The position numbers and the translations under genes were made by a program. Of a stretch of 38,418 nt of DNA, positions 13,001 through 37,903 are shown one piece after another. The notes below the pieces were generated by a model. That model was not told the origin of the DNA, did not search any database, and saw only the letters and a program-made list of their open reading frames with translations. The stretch is from positions 10,182 to 48,599 of the forward strand of contig JACRMO010000110.1 of assembly GCA_016214925.1 (NCBI GenBank), given 5' to 3'. Position 1 is the stretch's first letter. Each line of letters starts with the position of its first letter. This DNA comes from Gammaproteobacteria bacterium (GTDB lineage Bacteria > Pseudomonadota > Gammaproteobacteria > Thiohalobacterales > Thiohalobacteraceae).

Positions 13001-13012
13001 GTCCGTCCTTTG

Positions 13013-14986: not shown

Positions 14987-15773
14987 CGTCAAGACTCTGA
15001 TCGGTTCGCGGTAGTGTACCCAAATCGTTGTGTGCCGGCAGCAGCAGGCCGATGCCGGACAGTGCCAACAGGCCGAAGGCGAGTTGACGCATGCGCTGTG
15101 GCGCGATGCGCGGCGCGATATGTGCGCCCCAGTGCGCGGCCAGCAGCACCGGCAGCGTGCAATACAGGGCTACTTCGATCATCGGCCAATGCAGTTCGCC
15201 ACGCGTGCTCTGCCAACCGATGCGCACCAGCGTGCTGATGACGAAAATCGCGAGCAGGGTGGAGCGGATGGCGGACAGCGTCCAGGGTTGCCGGTAGAGA
15301 TGGAACACGACCGGCGGACCGGCGGTGCTGAACAGGCCGCCAAGCAGGCCGCCGGCAATGCCGCTGAGCAGCGTGGTGAGGCGGCCGGAGGGTTGGGCAT
15401 GTGGATGTGGGCGCAGCATCAACAGCAGACCGGCGCTCAGGATCACCAGCCCGAGCAGTCGCCGCAGCAGGCCTGGAAGTTGGGTGTCCAGGTGTGCCAG
15501 CAGGGCCAGGCCGAGTCCGACGGCGGGTATCAGTCCTGCAACGGTCCAGGCGACGCTGCGCCACTGGATATTGCTGGGGTGCTGCGACAACACCCAACTG
15601 CCAGTGACCAGCGAGATCATACTGATGACCGCCGCTGTGAAGGGAATGGGCGCCAACTGCAACAGCGTGACGCAACCCAACACGATCAGACCCAAGGCGA
15701 AACCACTCAACGCCTGGACGAAACTGCCCAGGGCGGCGAGTCCGATGAACGCCAGCATATCCGGCAAGGGCAT
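14892..15773 (-). CDS. TauE/SafE-family sulfite/anion exporter (membrane protein)
   Basis: Polytopic protein of about 290 aa. FIGLAALGSFVQALSGFALGLIV and GIAGGLLGGLFSTAGPPVVF are typical of TauE. ATG at 15773 (MPLPDML); the longer ORF start is non-membrane Arg-rich sequence. Confidence 0.7.
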   Translation of the reverse strand: MPLPDMLAFIGLAALGSFVQALSGFALGLIVLGCVTLLQLAPIPFTAAVISMISLVTGSWVLSQHPSNIQWRSVAWTVAGLIPAVGLGLALLAHLDTQLPGLLRRLLGLVILSAGLLLMLRPHPHAQPSGRLTTLLSGIAGGLLGGLFSTAGPPVVFHLYRQPWTLSAIRSTLLAIFVISTLVRIGWQSTRGELHWPMIEVALYCTLPVLLAAHWGAHIAPRIAPQRMRQLAFGLLALSGIGLLLPAHNDLGTLPRTDQSLDDARSAATLPAPDHRSAVGAAVSGSPAAPARR

Positions 15774-24456: not shown

Positions 24457-25263
24457 ATGCCAAAAGCCGAGGACAGCGCAGCAGCGCTGCAACGTCTGTT
24501 GGACATCATGCGCCGCCTACGCGATCCGGACGGCGGCTGTCCCTGGGATTGCGCCCAGGATTTCCGCAGTATCGCGCCCTTTACCTTGGAAGAAGCCTAT
24601 GAAGTCGTCGATGCCATCGAACGCGAACGTCCCGATGAACTCTGCGATGAACTCGGCGATTTGTTATTCCAAGTGGTGTTTCATGCGCGCATGGCCGAAG
24701 AGCGTGGCTGGTTCGGTTTCGCGGAGGTGGCTGCGGCCATCGGCAATAAACTCGAACGGCGCCATCCACATGTGTTCGGCGATGTGGAGATCGCCGATGC
24801 CGAGGCGCAGACCCTGGCCTGGGAGGTGCACAAACGTGCGGAACGTGTACAGCAAGGACGACACGGTGTGCTCGATGGCGTGCCCCTGGCCTTGCCGGCG
24901 TTGACCCGCGCCGCCAAATTGCAACGTCGCGCCGCGCGCATCGGTTTGGACTGGCCGGATCACCAAGGTGTGCTCGCCAAGCTGCATGAAGAAATCGCCG
25001 AGGTCGAGGCAGCACGCACGGCTGACGATCAAGCCGCATTGAGCGCGGAGATCGGCGATCTGCTGTTTACCTGCGTAAACCTCGCACGTCATTTGGACGT
25101 CGATCCCGAAGGTGCCTTGCGCGCGGCCAACGCGCGCTTCGAGGCGCGTGTCGGCCATGTCGAGGCCAGTTTGGCAGCCACGGCAGCAGCCCCAGACCCC
25201 CGGATTCTGGATGCCGAAACCCTGGATCGCCTGTGGACGGCGGCCAAACAAACCGGGTTGTAG
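24457..25263 (+). CDS. mazG: Nucleoside triphosphate pyrophosphohydrolase MazG
   Basis: Tandem MazG domains (CPWDCAQDFRSIAPFTLEEAYEVVDAIE...ELGDLLFQVVFHA; second EEIAEVEAA...EIGDLLFTCVNLAR). AAGGAGA SD. Confidence 0.9.
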   Translation: MPKAEDSAAALQRLLDIMRRLRDPDGGCPWDCAQDFRSIAPFTLEEAYEVVDAIERERPDELCDELGDLLFQVVFHARMAEERGWFGFAEVAAAIGNKLERRHPHVFGDVEIADAEAQTLAWEVHKRAERVQQGRHGVLDGVPLALPALTRAAKLQRRAARIGLDWPDHQGVLAKLHEEIAEVEAARTADDQAALSAEIGDLLFTCVNLARHLDVDPEGALRAANARFEARVGHVEASLAATAAAPDPRILDAETLDRLWTAAKQTGL

Positions 25264-25329
25264 ATCGGGGCGCGGTTTCTGCTTACTATGCGCCGGGTTT
25301 GCGCACGCCATCACTTATGAGGGGTCGTT

Positions 25330-26526
25330 ATGGAGACACTACAAGCGGGAACTGACGTTCTCTTTATTCTACTGGGCGCCATTATGGTGCTTGCCATGCA
25401 TGCCGGCTTCGCCTTTCTGGAGCTCGGCACGGTGCGTGAGAAGAATCAGGTCAACGCCTTGGTCAAGATCATCTGCGACTTCGCCGTTTCGACCATTGCA
25501 TATTTCTTCGTCGGCTATGGTGTTGCCTATGGCGTGGATTTCCTGCGGGGCGCCGAGACGCTGACGGACAAGAACGGTTATGACCTGGTCAAATTCTTCT
25601 TCCTGCTGACTTTCGCGGCGGCAATCCCGGCGATCATCTCGGGCGGTATCGCGGAGCGGGCGCGGTTTCATCCGCAATTGATCGCGACCTTCTTATTGGT
25701 CGCGCTGGTCTATCCGTTTTTCGAAGGTATCAGTTGGAACGGTCAATGGGGCGTGCAGGACTGGATCGAGGCGCAGTTCGGCGCGCGTTTCCATGACTTC
25801 GCCGGTTCGGTCGTTGTCCACGCCATGGGAGGCTGGGTGGCACTTACCGCGGTGCTGCTGCTGGGCTCACGTCACGGGCGTTATGGAAAGGATGGCGCGG
25901 TGTACGCACATCCGCCGTCCAATATCCCATTCCTGGCCTTGGGTGCGTGGATTCTCACTGTGGGTTGGTTCGGTTTCAACGTGATGTCGGCACAGACCAT
26001 CGATGCGGTCAGTGGTCTGGTGGCCGTGAATTCATTGATGGCCATGGTCGGTGGGACGCTAGCCGCGTTGGTTGCAGGTCGTAACGATCCGGGTTTCGTA
26101 CACAACGGTCCGTTGGCCGGATTGGTCGCTGTTTGCGCGGGTTCGGATGTGATGCATCCGCTCGGCGCCTTACTGACCGGCGGTGTCGCCGGTGCGATGT
26201 TCGTGTGGTTGTTCACGCTGACGCAGAACCGGTGGAAGATCGACGACGTACTCGGTGTGTGGCCGCTGCACGGCTTGTGCGGCGCCTGGGGCGGGATCGC
26301 CGCCGGTATCTTCGGCAGCCAGTTCTGGGGCGGTTTGGGCGGTGTCAGCTTCGGCGCGCAGGTGGTCGGTACTCTGCTTGGCGTGGCGATCGCTCTGGCC
26401 GGTGGCTTTGCGATCTATGGCACGCTCAAAGCAGTGATGGGCCTGCGCCTGAGTCAGGAAGAGGAATATCAGGGCGCCGATCTCAGTATCCATCGCATCA
26501 AGGCGACACCGGAATACGACCGCTGA
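25330..26526 (+). CDS. amt: Ammonium transporter (Amt family)
   Basis: FILLGAIMVLAMHAGFAFLELG, FAGSVVVHAMGGW, LGAWILTVGWFGFN and GVWPLHGLCGAWGG are hallmark Amt motifs. Confidence 0.92.
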   Translation: METLQAGTDVLFILLGAIMVLAMHAGFAFLELGTVREKNQVNALVKIICDFAVSTIAYFFVGYGVAYGVDFLRGAETLTDKNGYDLVKFFFLLTFAAAIPAIISGGIAERARFHPQLIATFLLVALVYPFFEGISWNGQWGVQDWIEAQFGARFHDFAGSVVVHAMGGWVALTAVLLLGSRHGRYGKDGAVYAHPPSNIPFLALGAWILTVGWFGFNVMSAQTIDAVSGLVAVNSLMAMVGGTLAALVAGRNDPGFVHNGPLAGLVAVCAGSDVMHPLGALLTGGVAGAMFVWLFTLTQNRWKIDDVLGVWPLHGLCGAWGGIAAGIFGSQFWGGLGGVSFGAQVVGTLLGVAIALAGGFAIYGTLKAVMGLRLSQEEEYQGADLSIHRIKATPEYDR

Positions 26527-26597: not shown

Positions 26598-27782
26598 TTA
26601 TTGCGCGAGCGAATCGCGGTGCGGCGCACACAGACGACCGTTGTTGTAGTCATCCAGCTGCGCATGCAATGGCGAACCCATCACCCAGGCCTGGCTGCTG
26701 GCCAGCACTTGGCTGCGCACTGGCCCGTAGGTGGCCATCCAGTCATCGGCATTTTCGATCGTCTGATTAATGCAGCTGGCTTCGGTGCCGAGTGCGACGT
26801 TCAGCTTGGCAGCAACCAAGGCCTTGAACATCGTGATGGTCTTATCGGCCTTCTTAGCATTGCCCTCGGCGAGGCTCATCAACGAGATAGCCGTGGCCTT
26901 GGGATAGGTGACGCCGCCGATGGTGATCGATTCCACCGGCCAAGCTTCCGAATGATTTTTCCAATAACCGGGGGTACCGGTACCGACGTCCAGCTTGGGT
27001 GTGACATAACCGAAGTCGATGGTCTGGTCCGAGGCGTCGTTGGTCGCCAGAGTGACCAGGGTGCCGGCCGGCTCGTTGCTGTCGTCGGCGATGCCGGGGG
27101 CATTGCCGATAATCGTCGGCACCAGGTTCATGCCCAGCGGGTTGGCGTCGGCCGAAACGGTGTACTGACCCAGACACAGGTTCGGGAACTGGTAGTAACC
27201 GGGCTTGTTGTCCGGGCCACCGGTCATAGTCGTCGTGGTGACGATAGTGCCGTTGCTGTCTTGCAGGCTGACGATCACGCCGTTGAGGCCTGCTTCGGTG
27301 CTGTCCTGGATGCCATCGCGATCGCTGTCCAGCCACACATAGTCGCCGAGGGTGCCGGTGCAGGTCACAGTGCATTCGAGCAGGCCGATCTGCGATACAT
27401 CGATCGGCACAGTGTTGTAGCCGCGCAGTGTGGCTTGGCCGGAAACGACATAGGTGCCATTCAGCGTCTGATTCCACAGGCGGGTGAAATATTCGCGGAA
27501 CAAACCGGTTGGATCGGTCGTGGTGATCGCGAAGCTATCGTTTACGACGATAGGCGCGCTGCCGTCCGTCGGGCTGAGTGTAATGGAACTGTCTACCGTG
27601 GCGACTTCGCCCGCTGGCAGATAGGCAATGACACGGACATTGTAGTCATCGCAGGTAGCGGCCTTCATGGTTTCGGATTCGATCGACATGGACAACATAT
27701 CGGTCGCCGACGCCAAGGGCGCGCTCAGAATGGAAATCACCGCCAGCGCAACCGGTGACATTTTTTGTTGTTGTGCATTCAT
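26598..27782 (-). CDS. Secreted protein with SdrD-B/Cna-B-like fold domain and a C-terminal GTPGYWKNH-type domain
   Basis: Signal peptide (MNAQQQKMSPVALAVISILSAPLASA). GDYVWLDSDRDGIQDSTEAGLNGVIVSLQDSNG...GYYQFPNLCLGQYTV is a typical SD-repeat B-type domain. ATG 27782 follows GAGGG. Confidence 0.7.
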   Translation of the reverse strand: MNAQQQKMSPVALAVISILSAPLASATDMLSMSIESETMKAATCDDYNVRVIAYLPAGEVATVDSSITLSPTDGSAPIVVNDSFAITTTDPTGLFREYFTRLWNQTLNGTYVVSGQATLRGYNTVPIDVSQIGLLECTVTCTGTLGDYVWLDSDRDGIQDSTEAGLNGVIVSLQDSNGTIVTTTTMTGGPDNKPGYYQFPNLCLGQYTVSADANPLGMNLVPTIIGNAPGIADDSNEPAGTLVTLATNDASDQTIDFGYVTPKLDVGTGTPGYWKNHSEAWPVESITIGGVTYPKATAISLMSLAEGNAKKADKTITMFKALVAAKLNVALGTEASCINQTIENADDWMATYGPVRSQVLASSQAWVMGSPLHAQLDDYNNGRLCAPHRDSLAQ

Positions 27783-28119: not shown

Positions 28120-29181
28120 TTGCAACCCGAACACAGCCCCATGGACCCGCGCCGTCTGGCGCAGTTGGTCCCGCTCAACAGTCTCTCGACGGACAATTTC
28201 AAGGATCTGGCCCAGAAGGTCCGTATCGAACATCTGACTGCCGGTCGTTCCGTGTTCCGGCGGGGTGACCGGGACAATCTGACCGTCTATCTGCTCGAAG
28301 GCGAACTGGAACTGCGCGACGCTGAGAATGCGCCATCGACATTGCAGGCGGGCATGCCCGCCGCACGCCACCCGTTGGCTCCGCAGCAGCCGCGCACGCT
28401 CAACGCGGTGGCGCGTACCGACATCAGCATCGTGCGCATCGATACCGATTTGCTGGACATCCTGCTCACCTGGGATCAGTCCGCCGGCTATGTCGTCACC
28501 GAATTGGAAGACGGGGATGCGGCCGCGGATGCCGACTGGATGACGCGGATGCTCGGTTCCAAAGTATTCCATCAGGTGCCACCGGCGAATATCCAGGAGA
28601 TTTTCCGACGCATGGAGGCGGTGCCGGTCAGCGCGGGCGACGTCGTGATCCGTCAGGGCGAGCAGGGCGATTATTACTTCGTGCTGCGCCAGGGGCAGGC
28701 CGAGGTCAGTCGCCGTGCGCCGAATGGTACCGTGATTCGACTGGCGCAATTGAATCAGGGTGCCTGCTTCGGCGAAGAAGCGCTGCTGTCGGATGGCGAA
28801 CGGAATGCCACGGTGACCATGCTGAGCGACGGCCTGATGATGCGCTTATCGAAAGCCGATTTCGACGCCCTGCTCAAAGCGCCGTTGCTGCATGACGTGG
28901 ATTTCGCCACGGCGACACAGCGGGTCGCCGGCGGCGCACGCTGGCTGGACGTGCGCCTGGAGAGCGAACATCACAACGGCGCAATCCCCGGCAGTCTCAA
29001 TATTCCGCTGTTTCTGTTGCGCCTGCGGTTGCGCGAACTCGACCCCGTGCTGACCTATGTGCTGTATTGCGATACCGGACGGCGCAGCGCGGCGGCGGCC
29101 TATCTGCTCAGCGAGGCAGGTTTCAATATTCTTATCCTCTCAGGCGGGTGTCTTGGTGTGTTGACGGCTGCGGCCGCCTGA
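28120..29181 (+). CDS. Tandem cyclic-nucleotide-binding domains fused to a rhodanese domain
   Basis: CNB-2 has a canonical phosphate-binding cassette (FGEEALLSDGERNATV). CNB-1 lacks it. The rhodanese domain has the active-site loop YCDTGRRS. TTG 28120 lies 7 nt after GGAGG; ATG 28141 is an alternative start. Confidence 0.8.
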   Translation: MQPEHSPMDPRRLAQLVPLNSLSTDNFKDLAQKVRIEHLTAGRSVFRRGDRDNLTVYLLEGELELRDAENAPSTLQAGMPAARHPLAPQQPRTLNAVARTDISIVRIDTDLLDILLTWDQSAGYVVTELEDGDAAADADWMTRMLGSKVFHQVPPANIQEIFRRMEAVPVSAGDVVIRQGEQGDYYFVLRQGQAEVSRRAPNGTVIRLAQLNQGACFGEEALLSDGERNATVTMLSDGLMMRLSKADFDALLKAPLLHDVDFATATQRVAGGARWLDVRLESEHHNGAIPGSLNIPLFLLRLRLRELDPVLTYVLYCDTGRRSAAAAYLLSEAGFNILILSGGCLGVLTAAAA

Positions 29182-29298
29182 ATTCCACACCTCTCTCTAG
29201 GGCACGGCTCTTGCAATCTCCCGATCACTGACCCGGCACCGTCGTTCGTTTGACGGTTCGCTGTGGTTGCCTGCTTTACATGCAGAGGCCGAATCGGG

Positions 29299-30609
29299 AT
29301 GTACAGACGCAGTATCGGGATTATCTTGCTGAGCGTATGGCTTGCTCAGGCAGCGTACGCCGGCACCCTCGACGCAGAAATCCAACGGCTGTTGCAGTTG
29401 GGTCAGCCGCAGGCTGCCTGGACACTGGCGCAGCAGAATCTGCCGGAGCATGCCGGCGAACCGGCATTTGATTTCGCGGCAGGTCTCGCCGCCCTCGAAG
29501 CGGGGCAACCACAGCATGCCGTCATGGCCCTGGAGCGGGTGCTGCTCGTGCAGCCCTCATTTCACCGCGCCCGTTTGGAGCTGGCGCGCGCCTACTACCA
29601 GTTAGGCGATTACGCCGCCGCGCGCCGCGAATTTCAGACCGTGGAGGCCATCGGCCCACCACCGAACGTGCGCCGGCGGGTCGAGTCGTTTCTCGCCGAG
29701 ATCCAACGTCGTGAAGAGGACGGCCGCACCCAAGTGACCGGTTACGTGGAGTTGCGTCCGGGTTGGGACAGCAACGTGAGCAGTGCCACGGCCGACAGCA
29801 CCGTCGATATTCCCGCGCTCGGGGTCGTCGGTCTTAGCGCGGACAGTCGCGCGCGCAGCGATCGCTTCCTGGACAAGAATGCCGGTGTCACGCTGGTGCG
29901 GCCGTTGGATAAACGCCGCGCCGTGTTTGCCGATGTGGCGTATCGCGACCGCGAGAATGTCGAAACGCAGGCGTATGACACGCGCAGTATCGGGCTGAGT
30001 GCCGGCATGGCCTGGGCCAATGAGGCGGATCGCATACGGTTGCCGGTGCAATATCAGGTGCTGTATCTCGCCAACCAAGAATATAGGCGCTTGGCCGCGC
30101 TGGGCGTGGAGTGGTCACGCGATCTCGACCCGCGCAATCAAGTGCTGGCCTTTGGTCAGTTAGGCACAATCCGCTATCCCGACGACGCGACCCGCGATGT
30201 GGATTCGTTGTTGGGCGGTGGCGCTTGGAACCATCGCTATGCCGAATTACCTCTGCTGGTGTCCACGAGCGCCTATCTCGGCGACGAGGCTGCGCGTGAG
30301 AGCGCCGGCGATCCCAATGGCCGCACGTATTACGGCGTGCGTCTGGGCGCGCAATGGAGCGGCATCCCGGCGCACACACCCTATGCCAGCCTGAGCTGGC
30401 AACATTCCGGTTACGACGCCGTAAACCCGGTGTTTGTGCGTACCCGCGACGAAGACTTCGCGGAACTGCGCCTGGGCTGGGATTGGCAGCCGCAGCAGCG
30501 CTGGAATGTAACCGCGGAGGCGAGTTTCGTGGACAACGGCGCGAATATCGCCTTGTACGACTACACGCGACAACAGTATGCGGTGGGTGTGCGGTATCAG
30601 TTCGATTGA
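29299..30609 (+). CDS. TPR + outer-membrane beta-barrel protein, DUF560/Slam-like (type 11 secretion system component candidate)
   Basis: Signal peptide MYRRSIGIILLSVWLAQAAYA. TPR-like helices (AVMALERVLLVQPSFHRARLELARAYYQLGDYAAARREF). About 280 aa of beta-strand-pattern sequence (GYVELRPGWDSNVSSA...) follow, ending NGANIALYDYTRQQYAVGVRYQFD. The family call is from architecture and remembered motifs. Confidence 0.55.
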   Translation: MYRRSIGIILLSVWLAQAAYAGTLDAEIQRLLQLGQPQAAWTLAQQNLPEHAGEPAFDFAAGLAALEAGQPQHAVMALERVLLVQPSFHRARLELARAYYQLGDYAAARREFQTVEAIGPPPNVRRRVESFLAEIQRREEDGRTQVTGYVELRPGWDSNVSSATADSTVDIPALGVVGLSADSRARSDRFLDKNAGVTLVRPLDKRRAVFADVAYRDRENVETQAYDTRSIGLSAGMAWANEADRIRLPVQYQVLYLANQEYRRLAALGVEWSRDLDPRNQVLAFGQLGTIRYPDDATRDVDSLLGGGAWNHRYAELPLLVSTSAYLGDEAARESAGDPNGRTYYGVRLGAQWSGIPAHTPYASLSWQHSGYDAVNPVFVRTRDEDFAELRLGWDWQPQQRWNVTAEASFVDNGANIALYDYTRQQYAVGVRYQFD

Positions 30610-30623
30610 ATGCGAGGTGTAGC

Positions 30624-32375
30624 GTGTCGTTAATCATGATAAGTCGCCGGTCATTCGCTGTGCTCTTGGGTTTGGCGCTGGCTTATGTGGTGAGCATGCA
30701 GCCGGTACTCGCTGCCGCGCCGGAGGCGGCCGGTCAGGTGATCGTCGCCAGCGGCACGGTACAAGCACTGGTGTCGACCGGCGAACAACGTACGCTGCGT
30801 CGACGCTCGCCATTCTATGCGGGTGAGATTATCCGCACTGCGGCGGCTTCCGCGGTGCAACTGCGCTTCAGCGACGGCGCATTGATGTCGTTGCGCGCCG
30901 ACAGTGAACTCAAGGTCGACAATTACCGATTTCAGAATCATGGCGGTGCCGGCGACCGCAGCATGTCCACCCTTATCAAAGGCGGCCTGCGCACCATCAC
31001 TGGCGTGATCGGCAAGCAGGATCCCTCGGCCTATCAACTGAGCACGCCGGTGGCGACCATCGGTGTGCGCGGCACGCATTACGAAGCGGTGCTGGAATCG
31101 CCGAAGAGTCTGGTGCTGGCGGCTTGGCAGGGCGGTATCCGCGTGCGCAACGAGCATGGCGCGATCGATCTGGGTGTAGGTGCCGATTACAACTTCGGCC
31201 GTGCCCAAGCCGAACAATCACCGCGTGGACTGCTGGAACCGCCGGCGGTATTGCAGAACGAAACGCCGGTCGGTCACGCGCAGCCTGTGGAGAAGACGGC
31301 GGCGCAGGACGAAAGCACGGCGCAAGAAGATGCCCCGACCGATACCGAGACACAGACGGCGGAAACGGGTACGGAACCATCGACAACCGAACCCACGGTC
31401 GCGGAAGGCGAGAGCGAGTTCTCCACGACCGACACGGGCGTTGCCACGGAACCCGCCGAGACTATGGGCGGCGATACCTTCGACAGTCCAATCGGCAGCC
31501 CGATCGCCGATACCGCGTGCAGCACCTGCGCCCCGCCACAGCAGATCGTGGTCACGCAACCGGACGATTTGCCGGCGTCTTCCGATCTGCGTTTCACCGC
31601 GCTCGAATGGGACAAGCTCAAGACTTCGCCGTATTTGGGCATGGCTGTGGAAGCCAATAACACGCCTGATTATGGCTTCGACGGTGGTCGTGTGCTCTAT
31701 CATGATACCGATTCGCCGGTGTTCGCCGACAACGGGTTCGGACCGCACGAGCCGCAGTACGCCACTGCGCCAATCCAGGATGTGCTACGCAGGGGTGGCG
31801 CGTCCGTCGATGCCTTCCAAAGTTTTCGTGTCGATGCCGGGCACACGGTCTATTGGGGAACGTGGAACGGCAACATCAACCCCGTGGAGATCCAGACCGA
31901 TGCGACCGATCCTACGGTCAAGGAGCACATCTATGCCCCTTTCCATTGGGCGACCTTGTTGCCCACCGATCCAGGCGCGATTGCCGCGCGTACCGGCACT
32001 GTGATGTATAACAACGTGATCGTTGCGCACGGCGGTGGCAGCGGTGGTGGGCCGCTCACGCCGGGTAATGTGATGTTCAACGCCAATGTGAATTTCGATA
32101 CCGGCGCCATTACCAACGGCAACCTGAATATCTACAACGGACCGGAAATATGGAACGTGGGCTTCGGCGGCAAGGTGGGTGGCAATATCGTGGATGTCCA
32201 CGTCAATAGCGCGATCAGTTCGGTCTCCGTGTCGACCACGAATCCCCAGCCGGTCGAAGGTGATATCGGAATGGCATTCACCGGGAATAACGGCCAGGCG
32301 ATCGGCGGCGGTTTTTCGTTGCAGGCGATCGGCAATCCGGGCACGCATGTCGAAGGCATTCTGCTGGTGAAATAA
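30624..32375 (+). CDS. Secreted chimera: N-terminal FecR domain, acidic Thr/Glu/Pro-rich linker, C-terminal TbpB-like (TbpBBD) beta-barrel
   Basis: SPI-type signal (FAVLLGLALAYVVSMQPVLAAAPE, no lipobox Cys). FecR-like region (VIVASGTVQAL...IRTAAASAVQLRFSDGALMSLRADSEL...STPVATIGVRGTHYEAV...GGIRVRNEHG). Linker of about 100 aa (EKTAAQDESTAQEDAPTDTETQTAETGTEPSTTEPTV...). C-terminal pattern ANVNFDTGAITNGNLNI...WNVGFGGKVGGN...VEGDIGMAFTGNNGQAIGGGFSLQ...VEGILLVK is like TbpB/fHbp barrels. Start is GTG 30624 (after GAGGTG) or ATG 30636. Confidence 0.6.
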   Translation: MSLIMISRRSFAVLLGLALAYVVSMQPVLAAAPEAAGQVIVASGTVQALVSTGEQRTLRRRSPFYAGEIIRTAAASAVQLRFSDGALMSLRADSELKVDNYRFQNHGGAGDRSMSTLIKGGLRTITGVIGKQDPSAYQLSTPVATIGVRGTHYEAVLESPKSLVLAAWQGGIRVRNEHGAIDLGVGADYNFGRAQAEQSPRGLLEPPAVLQNETPVGHAQPVEKTAAQDESTAQEDAPTDTETQTAETGTEPSTTEPTVAEGESEFSTTDTGVATEPAETMGGDTFDSPIGSPIADTACSTCAPPQQIVVTQPDDLPASSDLRFTALEWDKLKTSPYLGMAVEANNTPDYGFDGGRVLYHDTDSPVFADNGFGPHEPQYATAPIQDVLRRGGASVDAFQSFRVDAGHTVYWGTWNGNINPVEIQTDATDPTVKEHIYAPFHWATLLPTDPGAIAARTGTVMYNNVIVAHGGGSGGGPLTPGNVMFNANVNFDTGAITNGNLNIYNGPEIWNVGFGGKVGGNIVDVHVNSAISSVSVSTTNPQPVEGDIGMAFTGNNGQAIGGGFSLQAIGNPGTHVEGILLVK

Positions 32376-32393
32376 CGCGCGGTTGCCGAGCGG

Positions 32394-34604
32394 CTATTTC
32401 TCTCGGCGCTCGTAGACGCCGTCCCAATCTTCCGGCAAGGCACGCTCGCGGAGATGATCTATACGCTCCAGATATAAAGCGTAGAGCTGTGTCTCTGGAT
32501 GCGCCGCGTGCAAGGCCGCGAACAGCGCGTGCGCCTGCGGCCACGCGCGTCCCCAGAAATGTCCCAGCGCTTGCGCGTGGCTGGCCAGTTCCTCGCGCAG
32601 GGATTCACTGAGTTCCATCGACCGACACAGCGGTACGTAAACCTCCACGGCTTCGTGTTTGCCCTTTACACGTACACGGTCCAATTGCTGGTAAACGAAG
32701 CCAGGGGCCAGTTCGCGGGTGCGCGGCCCAACCACCAGATGCACGCCGTAGTATTTAGTCAGACCTTCCAGACGTGATGCCAGATTCACTGCATCGCCGA
32801 TCACTGTGTAGGCACGGCGATATTGCGAACCCATGTCGCCCACGTTCATGACGCCACTGTTGATGCCGATGCCGATATTGATCTCCGGCAGGCCCTCGCG
32901 CGCGAATTCTTTTTGCAGATCTTTCACGGCGTTCAGCATGTCCAGCGCGGCGGCGATGGCGTGTTCGGCATGTTCGCCGTCCTGCAGCGGCGCGCCCCAG
33001 AAAGCCATGATCATGTCGCCGACATATTTGTCGATGGTGCCACGACGGTCGAAGATGACGCGCGTCATCGGCGTGAAGAAGCGGTTGAGCAGGCTTTTGA
33101 GTTCGCCGGCGGACAATGCCTCGGAGATCGTCGTGAAGTTGCGGATGTCGGCGAATAACACCGACAGCTCGCGGCTCTCGCCGTCGAAGTCGAAATATTC
33201 CGGGCGCCGGCTCATTTCTTCGACCAGGGCCGCCGGCACGTCTTGGCCGAACCTATTCTTGAGCTGACGGCGGCTGCGCGATTCGAACAGGAAGCCGTAG
33301 CTCATGTTGAACACGGACAGCACCAGAATCAGCAACAACGGCAGGCTCAATGCGAGCGCCAGATCGGCCGATTTCCACAGCCAGACATTGCCGGCCGTCA
33401 CACCGACAAGGGCCACGGTGGCGGCCAGTAGCTGCACCCAGGCCGTGAGAAAGGGCAGCGCGCTGGCCAGCAAGACTCCAAGCAACAACATCAGTGTGAA
33501 GTTGGCGCCCTTTGCCCACGCCGGTTCCGCCGGGAAGCGACCTTCCAAGATACCGGCGAGGATGTTGGCCTGAATCTCCACGCCCGGAAATACACCCGCG
33601 ACCGGTGTGGCACGCAGATCGGCAAGCGCCAGCGCCGAGGCGCCGATCAGTACCACGCGGTTGTTCAGCGCGTCGTTGCCGATCTGTCCTCGCAGCACAG
33701 CGGTCGCCGAAACCTGTGCGAAGCTTCCGGCCGGACCACGATACGGAATCAGCACTTGGCCGCTGCCGTCGACAGCGAGATGTTTATCGCCGAGGACGAT
33801 CTGATCGACGGTTTCCAGTGCGCCGATCCGCGTGAGGCGTATGTCGGGCGTGTCGACCAGCAGGTATGTATTTGCCGCGGCCAACGCCAGCGAGGGGTAG
33901 ACGGCAGTCCCGATGCGCAACACCAGCGGCGAACGACGGATCACGCCGTCGCTGTCCGGCAGCGTGGTCAGAAAGCCGCTCGCGCGGCTGGCGTTCTGCA
34001 ACGCGGGCAGATTTCCCGTGGACGTGCGCAACGCCGGAATTGCCGTGCGCAGATCGGCGGGGACCGTCAGTATGGGCGAGGGGAGCATGCCGCTGGGAGG
34101 CGTGCGCTGATTGTGCAGTACGAAGCCCAGTACGCTATCGATTTCGGCGAGACTGGCCGCGAACTGGGCATCGGCATCGAAGGCCGCTAGATGGGCGGTC
34201 AACTGCTGTGTGATGGCTGGATCGGTCGGGCCCAAGACATCCAGGACGGTGTGGATTGGATTTGTCTCGGCCTCCGAGAACACCATATCGAAAGCGACCA
34301 CGGCGGCGCCCGCATCCCGCAATCGGGTCACGAGTTCGGCGAGGCGCGCACGTGACCAGGGCCAGCGGCCCTCGGCTTGCAAGCTGGCTTCGTCGATATC
34401 GCAGATGACGATTTGCGGGGATGCATTGGACGCCTGCGGCAAGCTGGCATTGAGCCGCAGATCATAGGCGAGGTATTCCAGACGTTCGCGGGCGGTGCGG
34501 ACGGCGGACAGTTCGTTCGTCTGCAACCACAGCATGCATGTTGCGAGCGCGAGTCCAATCAGGATGGCTGTTTTTCTGCCGCTGCCGCCGGAATGTCTCG
34601 TCAT
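32394..34604 (-). CDS. CHASE2 sensor domain - class III adenylate cyclase
   Basis: TM1, then periplasmic CHASE2 (IVICDIDEASLQAEGRWPWSRARLAELVTRLRDAGAAVVAFDMVFSE). Three TM segments follow, then the cyclase domain (LSVLFADIRNFT...IDKYVGDMIMAFWG...YTVIGDAVNLASRLE). Metal Asp residues, Asn and Arg are present, with a Lys/Thr specificity pair. ATG 34604 (MTRHSGG). Confidence 0.88.
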   Translation of the reverse strand: MTRHSGGSGRKTAILIGLALATCMLWLQTNELSAVRTARERLEYLAYDLRLNASLPQASNASPQIVICDIDEASLQAEGRWPWSRARLAELVTRLRDAGAAVVAFDMVFSEAETNPIHTVLDVLGPTDPAITQQLTAHLAAFDADAQFAASLAEIDSVLGFVLHNQRTPPSGMLPSPILTVPADLRTAIPALRTSTGNLPALQNASRASGFLTTLPDSDGVIRRSPLVLRIGTAVYPSLALAAANTYLLVDTPDIRLTRIGALETVDQIVLGDKHLAVDGSGQVLIPYRGPAGSFAQVSATAVLRGQIGNDALNNRVVLIGASALALADLRATPVAGVFPGVEIQANILAGILEGRFPAEPAWAKGANFTLMLLLGVLLASALPFLTAWVQLLAATVALVGVTAGNVWLWKSADLALALSLPLLLILVLSVFNMSYGFLFESRSRRQLKNRFGQDVPAALVEEMSRRPEYFDFDGESRELSVLFADIRNFTTISEALSAGELKSLLNRFFTPMTRVIFDRRGTIDKYVGDMIMAFWGAPLQDGEHAEHAIAAALDMLNAVKDLQKEFAREGLPEINIGIGINSGVMNVGDMGSQYRRAYTVIGDAVNLASRLEGLTKYYGVHLVVGPRTRELAPGFVYQQLDRVRVKGKHEAVEVYVPLCRSMELSESLREELASHAQALGHFWGRAWPQAHALFAALHAAHPETQLYALYLERIDHLRERALPEDWDGVYERREK

Positions 34605-34883: not shown

Positions 34884-35852
34884 TCAGTAAGTCCTACTGA
34901 CTGAAAATTCCGCGAGTGCGTACAGGGCATCCTTGTAGGGAGATGCCGGCAAGTTTTGCAGGGACTGCATGGCTTGATCGGCTGCCGAACGCGCGGATTG
35001 CGCAGTGTACGCGATGCCCCCTACCGATTCAATGGCCTGTTGGACGGCTTCGATGTCGTCGCGGCCGCCGTGTTCGATAGCATGGCGCACCACGGCGACT
35101 TGCTCAGGCGTACCTTTGCGCAGCACATAAATGAGCGGCAGCGTGGGTTTGCCTTCGGCGAGATCATCGCCGATGTTCTTGCCGGTTTCCGCGGCATCGG
35201 CGCTGTAGTCGAGCACATCGTCGATGAGCTGGAACGCTGTGCCTAAGTGCATGCCATAGGCGGCAATCGCCTCTTCCACGGCCGGCGGTTGTCCACCCAG
35301 CACCGCGCCTATGCGCGCGGCCGCTTCGAACAGCTTGGCGGTCTTGCAGCGGATGACGTCCATGTAGCGTGCTTCGCTGGTGTCCGGGTCGTGGCAGTTG
35401 AGCAGTTGCATCACCTCGCCCTCGGCGATGGTGTTGGTGGTCTGCGCCATGATTTCCATGATGCGCATGCTGCCGACCTCGACCATCATTTCGAAGGCGC
35501 GCGAATAGAGGAAATCGCCGACCAGCACGCTGGCCTCGTTGCCCCACAGGGCGTTGGCGGTCTCGCGGCCGCGGCGCAGTTCCGAGGCATCCACGACATC
35601 GTCATGGAGCAGGGTGGCGGTGTGAATGAACTCGACGATCGCGGCCAGATTGAGATGGTGGCGTCCGGTATAACCGCAGGCGTGCGCCGCGAGCAGCACC
35701 AGCAGTGGGCGCAGACGTTTTCCACCACTGTTGACGATGTACAGACCGACCTGATTGATCAGCAGTACATCCGAGCTCAAGCGTTCTTGGACGAGCCGAT
35801 CCACCGCCTGCATAGCCTCGGTGGTGAGGTCGCGTACCTGGTCCAAGCTCAT
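34884..35852 (-). CDS. ispB: Octaprenyl diphosphate synthase (trans-polyprenyl diphosphate synthase)
   Basis: First and second Asp-rich motifs (LLHDDVVD; FQLIDDVLD), GKRLRP, and a C-terminal pattern typical of IspB. Divergent from rplU, as in many proteobacteria. ATG 35852. Confidence 0.9.
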   Translation of the reverse strand: MSLDQVRDLTTEAMQAVDRLVQERLSSDVLLINQVGLYIVNSGGKRLRPLLVLLAAHACGYTGRHHLNLAAIVEFIHTATLLHDDVVDASELRRGRETANALWGNEASVLVGDFLYSRAFEMMVEVGSMRIMEIMAQTTNTIAEGEVMQLLNCHDPDTSEARYMDVIRCKTAKLFEAAARIGAVLGGQPPAVEEAIAAYGMHLGTAFQLIDDVLDYSADAAETGKNIGDDLAEGKPTLPLIYVLRKGTPEQVAVVRHAIEHGGRDDIEAVQQAIESVGGIAYTAQSARSAADQAMQSLQNLPASPYKDALYALAEFSVSRTY

Positions 35853-36023
35853 GAACTGGCTATCTTTTCGAAGTGGCTCGCGCATCGGCTGGGGTGATCC
35901 TGACCGTCTCCGACCGGGCAACCCCGGGCGGGTCCCAATTACCGGGGTGGCATCGGAGTGGCACCGGGGTGACGGGCTGCCTAGTGTAACCTCAGGTCCC
36001 GCCGCAGACCAAACAAATCGGGT

Positions 36024-36052
36024 TTGACCTGTGGGCGGGTGGCCTATAGAAT
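36024..36052 (+). promoter_or_regulatory. Candidate sigma-70 promoter for rplU-rpmA
   Basis: TTGACC-17 nt-TAGAAT, about 80 nt upstream of the rplU ATG. Confidence 0.55.
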
Positions 36053-36131
36053 TGGCGCCCTTTCAATGCTGTGGCGTCGATCTCTTACGACGGGGCCCGG
36101 CCAAAGAGACAGGTTTGCGGAGAACTTCAAG

Positions 36132-36443
36132 ATGTACGCAGTGATCGTCACCGGTGGTAAACAGTACCGGGTCACACCCGGCGAGACCCTCAAGATCGAA
36201 AAGCTGGAAGTGGCTGAGGGCGCCGCGGTGGAGTTCGACCGCGTTCTGATGGTTGCCGATGGTGACGCCGTCAAACTGGGCACCCCGTACCTGGCCGGCG
36301 GCAAGGTCAGCGCGACGGTCAAGTCGCACGGTCGTCACAAGAAAGTGCACATCATCAAGTTCCGCCGCCGCAAGCATCACATGAAGCATCAGGGGCATCG
36401 CCAGTACTACACCGAAGTGCAGATCACCGGCGTTTCCGCGTAA
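36132..36443 (+). CDS. rplU: 50S ribosomal protein L21
   Basis: [14 protein letters not shown]...[16 protein letters not shown] is a canonical L21 sequence. Confidence 0.95.
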
Positions 36444-36473
36444 GGCATTTGAGACAGAGGCAGGGCTTAAGCA

Positions 36474-36734
36474 ATGGCACATAAGAAAGCAGGCGGCAGT
36501 ACCCGCAACGGCCGCGATTCAGAATCGAAACGACTCGGCGTGAAGCGCTACGGCGGTCAGCAGGTCATCTCCGGCAACATCATCGTGCGTCAGCGTGGTA
36601 CCCATTTCCATCCGGGCCTGAACGTCGGCCTGGGCAAGGACCATACCTTGTTCGCGACGGCGGACGGCAAGGTGTGTTTCGTGACCCGCGGTCCGAACAA
36701 CCGCAAGTTCGTGGATGTGGTTGCCGCCGAGTAA
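36474..36734 (+). CDS. rpmA: 50S ribosomal protein L27
   Basis: [24 protein letters not shown]...[12 protein letters not shown] is a canonical L27 sequence. Confidence 0.95.
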
Positions 36735-36759
36735 GCGCGCTTCCGCTTCATGCATACAA

Positions 36760-36791
36760 GGCCCCGTCCGGTACGGGGCCTTTTATTTTTT
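36760..36791 (+). terminator. Intrinsic terminator/attenuator after rpmA
   Basis: GGCCCCG-tccggta-CGGGGCC followed by TTTTATTTTTT. Confidence 0.8.
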
Positions 36792-36793
36792 GA

Positions 36794-37903
<1,110 letters not shown>

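What the first reader, a model, noticed from the sequence alone, without database searches (positions are those of the whole stretch)
28120..34604. Slam/T11SS-like outer-membrane protein + FecR::TbpB-barrel chimera + CHASE2 adenylate cyclase + cNMP-binding rhodanese: candidate surface-to-cytoplasm cyclic-nucleotide signalling system
Four adjacent genes suggest one pathway spanning all envelope layers.

- A TPR + DUF560-like barrel protein (29299-30609). This is the architecture of Slam / type 11 secretion translocons, which move proteins carrying a C-terminal TbpB-like barrel to the cell surface.
- A secreted protein 14 nt downstream (30624-32375). Its C-terminus has the TbpB/fHbp-type barrel pattern, but its N-terminus is a FecR domain (periplasmic signal-transducing fold) joined by an acidic linker of about 100 aa.
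- A convergent inner-membrane CHASE2 sensor fused to a catalytically intact class III adenylate cyclase (32394-34604).
- A protein with a competent cNMP-binding cassette fused to a rhodanese (28120-29181), at the head of the same strand block.

Known T11SS loci pair with TonB-dependent receptors and nutrient-binding lipoproteins. No TonB-dependent receptor is present in this window. The implied function is signal input to a cyclase: surface barrel, then FecR in the periplasm, then CHASE2, then cAMP, then the CNB-rhodanese. I am not aware of this combination being described.
Basis: partly seen in the sequence, partly recalled or inferred. Interest (0 to 1): 0.85.

Follow-up and report, generated by a model that had tools for sequence, protein, structure and literature searches.

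The report
Slam-like secretion pair feeding a cAMP cyclase
Four neighbouring genes encode an outer-membrane pore of the Slam/type 11 secretion family, a secreted protein joining a FecR signalling domain to a transferrin-binding-protein-like surface lobe, a membrane cAMP-making sensor and a cAMP-binding enzyme; together they look like a split version of a known rhizobial outer-membrane-to-cAMP sensing system, built from secretion-system parts.

Summary
All four genes sit at the stated coordinates with the stated domains. Two calls (DUF560 in the OMP, TbpB-type barrel in the chimera) fall below Pfam threshold in the window copies and needed family profiles and structure models.

- **OMP + FecR::lobe cassette:** it recurs in 69 of 80 related genome loci. 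The C-terminal lobe is present essentially only when the OMP is (p = 5e-9).
- **CHASE2 adenylate cyclase:** it is a neighbour in 31 of 80 loci.
- **All four genes:** they recur together in distant relatives (L081, L053).

The novelty claim is overstated.

- A CHASE2 cyclase + FecR + TPR cluster was noted in Campylobacterota in 2022.
- Sinorhizobium meliloti NsrA was scanned here. It is FecR + TPR + outer-membrane barrel in one polypeptide, encoded directly upstream of the CHASE2 cyclase CyaK. It is experimentally required for sensing an extracellular protein signal.

What appears undescribed is the type 11 secretion link: a divergent DUF560 pore paired with a FecR-headed, TbpB-lobed cargo of 1 to 7 lobes.

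Best reading: a split NsrA-like trans-envelope input to cAMP signalling. Protein topology, FecR–CHASE2 contact and the ligand are all inferred, not shown. Verdict: new variant of a known kind, moderately high interest.

The parts
28120..29181 (+). Gene A: tandem cNMP-binding domains plus a rhodanese. Candidate cAMP receptor or effector. Second CNB at 28627-28878; rhodanese at 28933-29154, active-site loop CDTGRRS.
   Evidence: Pfam cNMP_binding 95.9 bits and Rhodanese 53.1 bits. Phosphate-binding cassette aligned to PKG and PKA-R. Homologues sit next to the cassette in L002, L005, L007, L010, L031, L053 and L081.
29299..30609 (+). Gene B: outer-membrane protein and divergent DUF560/Slam (T11SS) family member. 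Signal peptide, then TPR region at 29368-29724 (residues 24-142), then a 14-strand barrel at 29731-30606 (residues 145-436).
   Evidence: Pfam TPR hits. SlipAM 13.9 bits and TPR_Slam 22.9 bits, both sub-threshold. 12 of 24 relatives pass SlipAM. Barrel-only phmmer scores 68-140 bits to those relatives. AF2 pLDDT 91.9 with 14 long strands. Foldseek matches TPR-barrel exporters and 14-strand barrels.
30624..32375 (+). Gene C: secreted FecR::TbpB-like-lobe chimera and predicted T11SS cargo. Sec signal peptide at 30624-30704; FecR-type domain at 30720-31259 (residues 33-212); acidic disordered linker at 31263-31550 (residues 214-309); handle plus 8-strand barrel lobe at 31599-32372 (residues 326-583).
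   Evidence: Pfam FecR 46.8 bits. Family profile versus PDB: TbpB 4.9e-6, NHBA, haemophore. 11 of 29 relatives hit TbpB_B_D. AF2 model. Foldseek: TbpB, HphA, fHbp and NHBA for the C-terminus; PupR and BDI_1681 anti-sigma domains for the N-terminus.
32394..34604 (-). Gene D: inner-membrane CHASE2 sensor fused to a class IIIb adenylate cyclase. CHASE2 at 33474-34508 (residues 33-377); cyclase at 32646-33173 (residues 478-653).
   Evidence: Pfam CHASE2 200.9 bits and Guanylate_cyc 81.3 bits. Catalytic motifs align with CyaB 3r5g and other adenylate cyclases. Homologues lie within 7 kb of the FecR gene in 31 of 80 loci.

Best explanation
The cluster is a trans-envelope sensory input to cAMP signalling. 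It is a split counterpart of the Sinorhizobium NsrA–CyaK system, built from type 11 secretion parts.

Proposed mechanism:
1. Gene B is a divergent DUF560/Slam-family pore (periplasmic TPR plus 14-strand barrel).
2. Gene C is its dedicated cargo. The Sec system delivers C to the periplasm.
3. B recognises C's C-terminal TbpB-like handle-barrel lobe and puts that lobe on the cell surface, where it binds an unknown ligand.
4. The N-terminal FecR-type domain is the part that communicates with the periplasmic CHASE2 domain of the cyclase (gene D). It probably stays periplasmic, tethered through the roughly 95-residue disordered acidic linker.
5. Ligand status therefore changes cAMP synthesis.
6. 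cAMP is read by the CNB-rhodanese (gene A), and probably by other receptors.

Shown here: the domain architectures, the family relationships and the conserved gene linkage.

Inferred: export by B, the split topology of C, FecR–CHASE2 contact, the ligand, and the role of A.
For: **Parts**
- B is homologous over its whole barrel to Pfam-positive SlipAM proteins. It models as TPR plus 14 strands.
- C's C-terminus is a TbpB/HphA/fHbp-type lobe.

**B–C coupling**
- B sits directly upstream of C, on the same strand, in 69 of 80 genome loci.
- FecR proteins carry a C-terminal extension of 140 aa or more in 64 of 65 loci with the OMP, against 1 of 9 without it (Fisher p = 5e-9).
- The extension is one homologous domain reaching the exact C-terminus in 64 loci.
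- Pfam-positive SlipAM OMPs are also followed by FecR genes, in tandem duplicate in L085.
- 87 of the 147 library representatives that match the lobe have an N-terminal FecR domain, with 1-7 lobes per protein. Multi-lobe giants fit a surface-exposed role.

**FecR–CHASE2 coupling**
- A cyclase is adjacent in 31 of 80 loci. Seven of these pair it with a short, lobe-less FecR protein and have no OMP.
- S. meliloti CyaD1 has a convergent short FecR gene.
- Burkholderia has LysM-FecR plus a CHASE2 histidine kinase.
- Campylobacterota have CHASE2 cyclase + FecR + TPR clusters.

**Fusion evidence**
- The 1219-aa ORF directly upstream of cyaK on pSymB is inferred to be NsrA. It carries FecR (57 bits) plus TPRs, ahead of the published barrel at residues 600-1200.
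- Its FecR domain aligns to C's at hhalign probability 90%, E 1.5e-6.
- NsrA is genetically required for CHASE2 cyclases to perceive an extracellular protein signal (PMC7529298, PMC13001267).

**Four-gene linkage**
- All four genes recur in a distant relative (L081) and, rearranged, in L053.

**Competence of D and A**
- D has intact catalytic motifs. A keeps the Gly-Glu and Arg of its binding cassette.
Against: - All characterised T11SS cargo is moved across the outer membrane whole. It is either lipid-anchored or released (PMC8406197, PMC12282271). That would put the FecR domain outside the cell, away from CHASE2.
- C has no lipobox.
- 45 of 69 OMP-bearing loci have no CHASE2 gene within 7 kb. 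Their flanks are unrelated housekeeping genes. The cassette can therefore stand alone, or its partner is encoded elsewhere.
- In S. meliloti, the short FecR protein SMc02177 was not needed for plant-signal perception (PMC5498481).
- The window copies of B and C do not themselves reach Pfam thresholds for SlipAM or TbpB_B_D.
- NsrA's barrel shows no detectable similarity to B's barrel.
- The CNB-rhodanese is present in only about 8 loci. The closest relatives, L001 and L003, lack it.
Confidence: 0.55

Rival explanations
1. B and C form an autonomous secretion cassette. B secretes the whole FecR::lobe protein to the surface or the medium, as with haemophilin or HrpC. There it acts as an adhesin or binding protein. 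The cyclase and the CNB-rhodanese are only neighbours or regulators, not physical partners of C.
For: - Characterised T11SS cargo is fully translocated (PMC8406197 and PMC12282271).
- C has a plain Sec signal peptide and no lipobox.
- 45 of 69 OMP loci lack a CHASE2 neighbour.
- Relatives carry up to 7 lobes and reach 2111 aa, resembling surface adhesins.
- NCBIfam gives weak hits to the Leptospira FecR-domain surface adhesin Lsa33 and to LipL45.
Against: - CHASE2 cyclases are adjacent in 31 of 80 loci, far above chance, and also pair with lobe-less periplasmic FecR proteins.
- NsrA fuses FecR to a TPR-barrel protein immediately upstream of a CHASE2 cyclase.
- The four-gene set is kept in distant and in rearranged loci.
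Confidence: 0.2
2. This is a split NsrA with no export. B is an outer-membrane receptor whose surface loops sense the signal, as proposed for NsrA. C stays entirely in the periplasm. Its lobe is simply the domain that docks C onto B's TPR or barrel rim, replacing the covalent fusion seen in NsrA. Its FecR domain relays to CHASE2.
For: - NsrA has FecR + TPR + barrel and no TbpB-like lobe.
- Only NsrA's barrel loops are thought to be surface-exposed (PMC7529298).
- The strict co-occurrence of lobe and OMP fits a docking role equally well.
Against: - The lobe is homologous to TbpB, HphA, fHbp and NHBA lobes. Every characterised example of these is a surface or secreted T11SS substrate.
- B belongs to the translocon family, while NsrA's barrel is not detectably related to it.
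- Proteins with 3-7 tandem lobes are hard to explain as periplasmic docking modules.
Confidence: 0.15
3. C is a canonical Fec-type cell-surface signalling anti-sigma factor, or B is a TPR-barrel exopolysaccharide exporter of the BcsC/PgaA/PelB type.
For: - Foldseek matches C's N-terminus to the PupR and BDI_1681 anti-sigma periplasmic domains.
- Foldseek matches B best to BcsC and PelBC.
Against: - C has a signal peptide instead of a cytoplasmic anti-sigma domain plus transmembrane helix.
- No ECF sigma factor or TonB-dependent transducer was found: none of the ORFs scanned (all those of 600 aa or more, plus several shorter ones) is either. Short ORFs were not scanned.
- B models with 14 strands, not 16-18, and is sequence-related to SlipAM.
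- No polysaccharide synthase genes are adjacent.
Confidence: 0.03

Closest known systems
Sinorhizobium meliloti NsrA + CHASE2 adenylate cyclases CyaK/CyaD1/CyaD2 (with Clr as the cAMP receptor)
   Same: - Both combine an outer-membrane beta-barrel component, a FecR domain, TPR repeats and an inner-membrane CHASE2 class III cyclase encoded side by side.
- In S. meliloti the combination is experimentally shown to pass an extracellular (protein) signal to cAMP synthesis.
- CyaD1 also has a convergent short FecR gene, as the lobe-less loci here do.
   Different: - NsrA is one 1219-aa polypeptide (FecR + TPR + a barrel of about 600 aa). Here the FecR domain and the TPR-barrel are separate proteins.
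- B's barrel is a 14-strand DUF560 type, not detectably related to NsrA's.
- C carries a TbpB-like lobe that NsrA lacks.
- The adjacent cAMP-binding protein is a CNB-rhodanese, not a Crp-type regulator.
Type 11 secretion system / Slam (DUF560 OMP plus TbpBBD-barrel cargo such as TbpB, fHbp, HphA, HrpC, Pls)
   Same: - A TPR + 14-strand OMP is encoded immediately next to a Sec-dependent protein.
- That protein's C-terminus is a handle plus 8-strand barrel lobe.
- The cargo layout is N-terminal effector, disordered region, pedestal/handle, then C-terminal barrel.
   Different: - The effector domain is a FecR signalling domain. This is not among the roughly ten cargo architectures catalogued in PMC12282271.
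- In that study FecR co-occurrence was discarded as non-specific, with FDR 0.24.
- No TonB-dependent receptor, TonB or haem/metal genes are nearby. The partner is a cyclase.
- The OMP is too divergent to pass Pfam SlipAM in this copy.
Campylobacterota cluster of CHASE2 cyclase + FecR + TPR + phosphodiesterase (Mo et al. 2022, PMC9239204)
   Same: The co-located gene set matches: a CHASE2 adenylate cyclase, a FecR-domain protein described as outer-membrane, and a TPR protein. The authors proposed that they work in one pathway.
   Different: - It is described only as a neighbourhood. No link to DUF560/T11SS or to a TbpB-type lobe was made.
- The companion gene there is a phosphodiesterase; here it is a CNB-rhodanese.
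- Whether those proteins are homologous to B and C could not be checked here.
FecR/PupR anti-sigma factors of Fec-type cell-surface signalling, and Burkholderia LysM-FecR + CHASE2 histidine kinase (BiofilmReg operon)
   Same: - They share the FecR periplasmic fold (Foldseek 6ovk_R, 4m0n).
- A FecR-domain periplasmic protein is paired with a CHASE2 sensor.
   Different: There is no anti-sigma domain, no ECF sigma factor, no TonB-dependent transducer and no LysM domain. The output is a cyclase, not a kinase or sigma factor.
LapA/MpIBP-type adhesin retention module (T1SS substrates held in the outer-membrane pore by an N-terminal periplasmic plug)
   Same: - Residues 33-101 of C resemble the MpIBP anchoring domain. 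Foldseek gives 5ix9 at TM 0.77 and 27% identity. The family profile gives E 0.0011. NCBIfam retention_LapA scores 26 bits.
- It offers a precedent for a folded N-terminal domain kept in the periplasm while the rest of the chain is outside.
   Different: - The match is below the NCBIfam cutoff (26.2 against 50).
- The secretion system differs (T1SS/TolC-like against T11SS).
- No LapG/LapD genes are present.
- It is a lead for the topology only.

Membership tests
T11SS / Slam outer-membrane protein (DUF560, Pfam SlipAM PF04575) | Pfam SlipAM domain at or above the gathering score | tested here: inconclusive
   The window copy scores 13.9 bits against a cutoff of 22 (E 0.039). However, 12 of 24 aligned relatives pass, at 26-50 bits and covering profile positions 4-288. 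The window barrel alone scores 68-140 bits against them over its full length. It is a remote member by transitive homology.
T11SS / Slam outer-membrane protein (DUF560, Pfam SlipAM PF04575) | N-terminal periplasmic TPR domain followed by a 14-stranded beta-barrel | tested here: met
   TPR_19, TPR_16 and TPR_9 hits. TPR_Slam scores 22.9 bits, sub-threshold. The AF2 model (pLDDT 91.9) has helices at 24-142 and 14 long strands at 145-435. This rests on a prediction, not a solved structure. No Slam structure is in the PDB copy.
T11SS / Slam outer-membrane protein (DUF560, Pfam SlipAM PF04575) | Encoded next to a cargo gene with a C-terminal TbpBBD-type barrel | tested here: met
   C starts 14 nt after B. 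The pairing holds in 69 of 80 loci, and the lobe is present only with the OMP.
T11SS / Slam outer-membrane protein (DUF560, Pfam SlipAM PF04575) | Translocates its cargo across the outer membrane | not testable with these tools
   Needs co-expression with secretion and shaving assays.
T11SS cargo (TbpB/fHbp/haemophilin type) | C-terminal eight-stranded TbpB_B_D / lipoprotein-C type barrel, usually preceded by a handle or pedestal | tested here: met
   The window copy has no direct Pfam hit. However, 11 of 29 relatives hit TbpB_B_D. The family profile hits TbpB 5kkx at 4.9e-6, plus NHBA and a haemophore. In the AF2 model residues 326-583 have pLDDT above 90 and form a handle plus about 8 barrel strands. 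Foldseek matches TbpB at 2e-5, the TbpB C-lobe at TM 0.51, NHBA at 0.59 and the fHbp barrel at 0.64.
T11SS cargo (TbpB/fHbp/haemophilin type) | Sec signal peptide (lipoprotein or soluble) | tested here: met
   The N-terminus MISRRSFAVLLGLALAYVVSMQPVLA/AAP has a charged, then hydrophobic, then A-x-A pattern and no lipobox Cys. It was read from the sequence. Homologues show the same pattern. No dedicated signal-peptide predictor was available.
NsrA/CHASE2-cyclase outer-membrane-to-cAMP signalling (S. meliloti) | FecR domain + TPR + outer-membrane barrel encoded beside a CHASE2 class III cyclase | tested here: met
   All four elements are present in the window. The same elements are in the pSymB ORF upstream of cyaK. 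FecR-to-FecR hhalign probability is 90%.
NsrA/CHASE2-cyclase outer-membrane-to-cAMP signalling (S. meliloti) | Single-polypeptide NsrA architecture with a homologous barrel | tested here: not met
   The window system is split into two proteins. A2 against NsrA aligns only the TPR region (E 1.7e-4). No barrel match was found.
Fec-type cell-surface signalling anti-sigma factor (FecR/PupR) | N-terminal cytoplasmic anti-sigma domain plus transmembrane helix, with partner ECF sigma factor and TonB-dependent transducer | tested here: not met
   C begins with a cleavable signal peptide and the FecR domain starts at about residue 33. None of the window ORFs scanned is an ECF sigma factor or TonB-dependent receptor. 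Short ORFs were not scanned.
CHASE2-class III adenylate cyclase | CHASE2 periplasmic domain, membrane anchor, and a cyclase domain with metal-binding Asp pair, substrate Lys and Thr/Asp, and transition-state Asn and Arg | tested here: met
   CHASE2 200.9 bits and Guanylate_cyc 81.3 bits. FADIRNFT, IDKYVGD and YTVIGDAVNLASRLE align with CyaB 3r5g. Enzyme activity was not tested.
LapA-type retention module | NCBIfam NF033682 at or above its cutoff | tested here: not met
   26.2 bits against a cutoff of 50. Only structural resemblance to 5ix9.

The most novel reading that the evidence does not exclude
C is a single polypeptide that ends up threaded through the T11SS pore. Its TbpB-like lobe or lobes are on the cell surface. 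Its acidic linker lies in the barrel lumen. Its FecR or retention-like domain is kept in the periplasm, where it gates the CHASE2 cyclase. A secretion system would thus be repurposed as a trans-outer-membrane signal wire, and the FecR partner would give CHASE2, whose inputs are largely unknown, a defined input route.
Probability: 0.25. Interest if true: 0.85.

Novelty: new variant of a known kind. Interest (0 to 1): 0.62.

Why it matters
- **CHASE2 inputs.** CHASE2 is a common bacterial sensor domain whose inputs remain largely unknown. The only well-studied case, rhizobial NsrA with CyaK/CyaD, needs an outer-membrane partner whose mode of action is unclear.
- **A dissectable system.** This cluster breaks that partner into two recognisable pieces, a Slam-family pore and a FecR-headed, TbpB-lobed cargo. 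That gives a concrete, testable picture of how a surface event could reach a periplasmic CHASE2 domain.
- **Scope of type 11 secretion.** It would extend the system from nutrient capture and adhesion in host-associated bacteria to signal transduction in free-living Gamma- and Betaproteobacteria. At least 592 related stretches were found among species-representative genomes.
- **A new cargo class.** FecR plus 1-7 lobes would be added to the cargo catalogue, and a family of OMPs that current Pfam thresholds miss would be flagged.

Tried and rejected
- **Canonical Fec anti-sigma reading.** Rejected: no anti-sigma domain, ECF sigma factor or TonB-dependent transducer.
- **Polysaccharide-exporter reading for B.** BcsC and PelBC are the top Foldseek hits. 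Rejected on strand count and on sequence kinship to SlipAM.
- **Direct Pfam scans of the C-terminal extensions of ten distant homologues.** No TbpB_B_D was found except one weak hit. A locally iterated HMM was needed. That HMM included linker columns, so its scores are only indicative.
- **Profile search with the OMP alignment.** It did not reach named Slam proteins. The word-index pre-filter kept only close relatives.
- **Solved Slam structure.** None is in the PDB copy, by sequence or by fold.
- **NsrA barrel against B's barrel.** No detectable similarity.
- **Promoter and terminator scan.** At or below shuffled expectation, so uninformative.
- **Garnerone et al. 2018, the NsrA paper.** Not held. 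I could not check whether NsrA's FecR domain was already described there.
- **Identity of the pSymB ORF as NsrA.** Inferred from its size, its position upstream of cyaK (SMb20776) and the published barrel range.
- **Literature search for CNB-rhodanese fusions.** Nothing relevant.

Full report
**1. What is in the window**

Gene A (28120-29181, +)
- Pfam gives two cNMP_binding stretches (95.9 bits) and a Rhodanese domain (53.1 bits).
- The second cNMP-binding domain keeps the Gly-Glu and Arg of the phosphate-binding cassette (FGEEALLSDGERNAT). It aligns to PKG cassettes.
- The rhodanese keeps a CDTGRRS active-site loop.

Gene B (29299-30609, +)
- It has solid TPR hits but only sub-threshold hits to the two Slam models. 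SlipAM scores 13.9 bits against a cutoff of 22, and TPR_Slam scores 22.9 against 35.2.

Gene C (30624-32375, +)
- It starts 14 nt after B.
- It has a Sec-type signal peptide and no lipobox.
- Its only direct Pfam hit is FecR (46.8 bits).

Gene D (32394-34604, -)
- It is convergent with C, with stop codons 18 nt apart.
- It is a CHASE2 (200.9 bits) plus class III cyclase (81.3 bits) protein.
- Its metal-binding, substrate and transition-state motifs align with P. aeruginosa CyaB and other adenylate cyclases.

No ORF of 600 aa or more in the window is a TonB-dependent receptor.

**2. Are the two weak domain calls real?**

The outer-membrane protein (B)
- A homologue search found about 50 relatives.
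- In an alignment of 24 of them, 12 pass Pfam SlipAM (best 3.4e-13, near full profile length) and 11 hit TPR_Slam.
- The window protein's barrel region alone scores 68-140 bits against those SlipAM-positive proteins over its entire length. Homology to the DUF560 family is therefore firm even though this copy misses the Pfam cutoff.
- The AlphaFold2 model (pLDDT 91.9) shows a helical TPR region (residues 24-142) and 14 long strands. That is the topology predicted for T11SS proteins (PMC8406197).
- The PDB copy holds no Slam structure. Foldseek returns TPR-barrel exporters and 14-strand barrels.

The chimera (C)
- 11 of 29 aligned relatives hit Pfam TbpB_B_D.
- The family profile hits TbpB 5kkx (4.9e-6), NHBA and a haemophore in the PDB.
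- The model has two confident parts separated by a disordered acidic linker at residues 214-309.
- Foldseek matches the C-terminal part (residues 326-583, handle plus about eight barrel strands) to TbpB, the TbpB C-lobe, HphA, fHbp, LbpB and NHBA. All of these are Slam/T11SS substrates.
- Foldseek matches the N-terminal part to the periplasmic domains of PupR and another anti-sigma factor.

**3. Is the arrangement conserved?**

A scan of species-representative genomes found at least 592 stretches encoding relatives of C. The best 80 loci were analysed.

| Feature | Count among the 80 loci |
|---|---|
| B homologue directly upstream of the FecR gene, same strand | 69 |
| CHASE2 cyclase within 7 kb | 31 |
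| OMP and cyclase together | 24 |
| OMP, no cyclase | 45 |
| Cyclase, no OMP | 7 |
| Neither | 4 |

- FecR proteins next to an OMP almost always carry a C-terminal extension of 140 aa or more: 64 of 65, median 322 aa.
- Those without an OMP are short: 8 of 9 have 76 aa or fewer beyond the FecR domain (Fisher p = 5e-9).
- An iterated HMM shows the extension is one homologous domain, aligned to the exact C-terminus, in 64 loci.
- Pfam-positive SlipAM OMPs are also followed by FecR genes, once as a tandem duplicate pair (L085, L086).
- The CNB-rhodanese is next to the cassette in L002, L005, L007, L010, L031 and L053. In L053 it is on the opposite strand beside the cyclase.
- The full four-gene order recurs in a distant metagenomic relative, L081.
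- In the 45 OMP-bearing loci without a cyclase, the five whose flanks were checked carry unrelated housekeeping genes.
- A more sensitive CHASE2 HMM found no other CHASE2 proteins in those loci.

In summary, the OMP + FecR::lobe pair is the core cassette. The CHASE2 cyclase is a frequent but facultative neighbour. The CNB-rhodanese is an occasional one.

**4. How large and coherent is the lobe family?**

- A search of 1.84 billion representatives with the lobe alone (residues 326-583) returned 147 proteins at E of 0.001 or better.
- 87 of them begin with the same FecR-type domain. Most of the rest look like N-terminally truncated fragments.
- Lobe number ranges from 1 to 7 (for example P0176, 2111 aa).
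- This sub-family of TbpB-like lobes is therefore specifically attached to FecR heads.

**5. What is already known**

Type 11 secretion literature
- The T11SS cargo survey (PMC12282271) lists about ten cargo architectures. None has a FecR effector.
- In its supplement, FecR co-occurrence (201 against 48 in controls, FDR 0.24) was filtered out as non-specific.
- No paper in the held library links DUF560/T11SS with CHASE2 or adenylate cyclases.

Cyclase-side literature
- Mo et al. [quoted passage not shown] They proposed one pathway.
- Burkholderia has a LysM-FecR + CHASE2 histidine kinase operon.
- In S. meliloti, the outer-membrane protein NsrA is genetically required for the CHASE2 cyclases CyaK, CyaD1 and CyaD2 to perceive an extracellular protein signal, ribosomal protein uL2 (PMC7529298, PMC13001267).

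What I found on pSymB
- I located the cyaK region.
- The 1219-aa ORF directly upstream is inferred to be NsrA. Its size and the published barrel range of 600-1200 match.
- It carries a FecR domain (57 bits) followed by TPR repeats.
- Its FecR domain aligns to that of C at hhalign probability 90%.
- Its barrel is not detectably related to B's.
- CyaD1 also has a convergent short FecR gene, SMc02177.

NsrA is therefore a natural fusion of the components that are separate here. This is strong evidence that FecR-domain proteins, TPR-barrel OMPs and CHASE2 cyclases work together. It also means 'surface-to-cytoplasm cAMP signalling' is not a new kind of system.

**6. Most likely mechanism**

I favour a split NsrA-like input module, at confidence about 0.55.

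1. B exports or displays the TbpB-like lobe of C.
2. The FecR domain communicates with CHASE2.
3. cAMP is read by the CNB-rhodanese and probably by other receptors.

Shown:
- the domain architectures;
- the family relationships;
- the gene linkage;
- the dependence of the lobe on the OMP.

Inferred:
- export by B;
- the topology of C;
- FecR–CHASE2 contact;
- the ligand;
- the role of gene A.

The main difficulty is topology. Known T11SS cargo crosses the outer membrane whole, which would take the FecR domain away from CHASE2. Two observations argue that the FecR domain works in the periplasm. Lobe-less FecR proteins pair with CHASE2 cyclases, and in NsrA the FecR domain lies on the periplasmic side of the barrel.

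That leaves three possible topologies:
- a threaded topology: lobe outside, linker in the pore, FecR inside;
- export used as a switch;
- no export at all.

A weak lead supports threading. Residues 33-101 resemble the periplasmic retention module of LapA/MpIBP adhesins. Foldseek gives TM 0.77 and 27% identity, and NCBIfam gives 26 bits, below its cutoff.

Evidence against a simple obligatory relay:
- 45 of 69 cassettes have no cyclase neighbour.
- S. meliloti SMc02177 was not needed for plant-signal perception.

**7. Rivals**

- Autonomous secretion cassette for a surface or secreted binding protein (0.2).
- Split NsrA with no export, where the lobe is a docking domain (0.15).
- Canonical Fec anti-sigma factor or polysaccharide exporter (0.03, contradicted by the architecture).

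**8. Verdict**

The parts list and synteny are right. The novelty claim is too strong. The mechanism is unproven.
- It is a new variant of a known kind: NsrA/CHASE2-cyclase signalling on one side, T11SS cargo systems on the other.
- The apparently undescribed element is the marriage of the two.
- Interest is moderately high. It offers a tractable route into how CHASE2 domains receive signals, and it widens the functional scope of type 11 secretion.

Noticed in passing
window 30720-30926 (residues 33-101 of gene C): The first part of the FecR-type region resembles the periplasmic retention or anchoring module of LapA/MpIBP giant adhesins. PDB 5ix9: phmmer E 0.019, family profile E 0.0011, Foldseek TM 0.77 at 27% identity. 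NCBIfam retention_LapA scores 26 bits, below its cutoff of 50. Bermanella homologues give sub-threshold DUF7354 hits at the same place.
   Followed up: partly
P0176 (2111 aa), P0179, P0181, P0178, P0231 and others: Relatives of gene C carry 3 to 7 tandem copies of the TbpB-like handle-barrel lobe behind a single FecR head. These are giant multi-lobe proteins not seen among catalogued T11SS cargo.
   Followed up: partly
L045 8145-10739 (also L046, L049, L057, L067, L071): In Rheinheimera and Alteromonas loci, an extra gene of about 865 aa sits between the FecR::lobe gene and the CHASE2 cyclase. It has Big_9/cadherin-like domains plus a weak BamB/PQQ-like propeller hit. All genes are on one strand (OMP, FecR::lobe, this gene, cyclase).
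   Followed up: partly
L085 664-6081: A tandem duplication of the cassette: SlipAM OMP, FecR (416 aa), SlipAM OMP, FecR (479 aa), with no cyclase in the 8 kb read.
   Followed up: no
L084 4205-7864 (S. meliloti pSymB, upstream of cyaK): The 1219-aa ORF inferred to be NsrA carries an N-terminal Pfam FecR domain (57 bits) and TPR repeats ahead of its barrel. I could not check whether the original NsrA paper reported the FecR domain because the paper is not held.
   Followed up: partly
window 26598-27695 (-): A secreted protein with an SdrD_B (MSCRAMM B-repeat-like) domain is transcribed divergently from gene A across a 425-bp gap. It is absent from the otherwise syntenic locus L002, so it is probably not part of the cluster.
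   Followed up: partly
window 24457-26526 and 34884-37903; L001, L002, L003, L005: The cluster sits between mazG-amt and ispB-rplU-rpmA-obgE. L002 keeps the same context. In the closest relatives, L001 and L003, mazG is followed directly by the OMP, so amt and the CNB-rhodanese are missing. The cassette's chromosomal slot is older than its accessory genes.
   Followed up: partly
L058 6950-7870: One short, lobe-less FecR protein next to a CHASE2 cyclase has a lipobox (LILLGC). It is probably a lipoprotein, unlike the soluble signal peptides of the others.
   Followed up: no
L061 6911-9181: This is the one exception to the lobe-needs-OMP rule. The FecR protein has a 517-aa extension and a weak TbpB_B_D hit, but no OMP homologue lies within 7 kb on either side.
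   Followed up: no
window 284-23812: The rest of the window encodes an NirB-type nitrite reductase, an assimilatory nitrate reductase-like enzyme and other molybdopterin oxidoreductases, an MCP, a REC-REC-GGDEF-EAL protein, an HDOD/HD protein and FBPase. Two ORFs (12327-13355 on the minus strand, 13946-15238 on the plus strand) had no Pfam hit at E 1e-5 or better.
   Followed up: no
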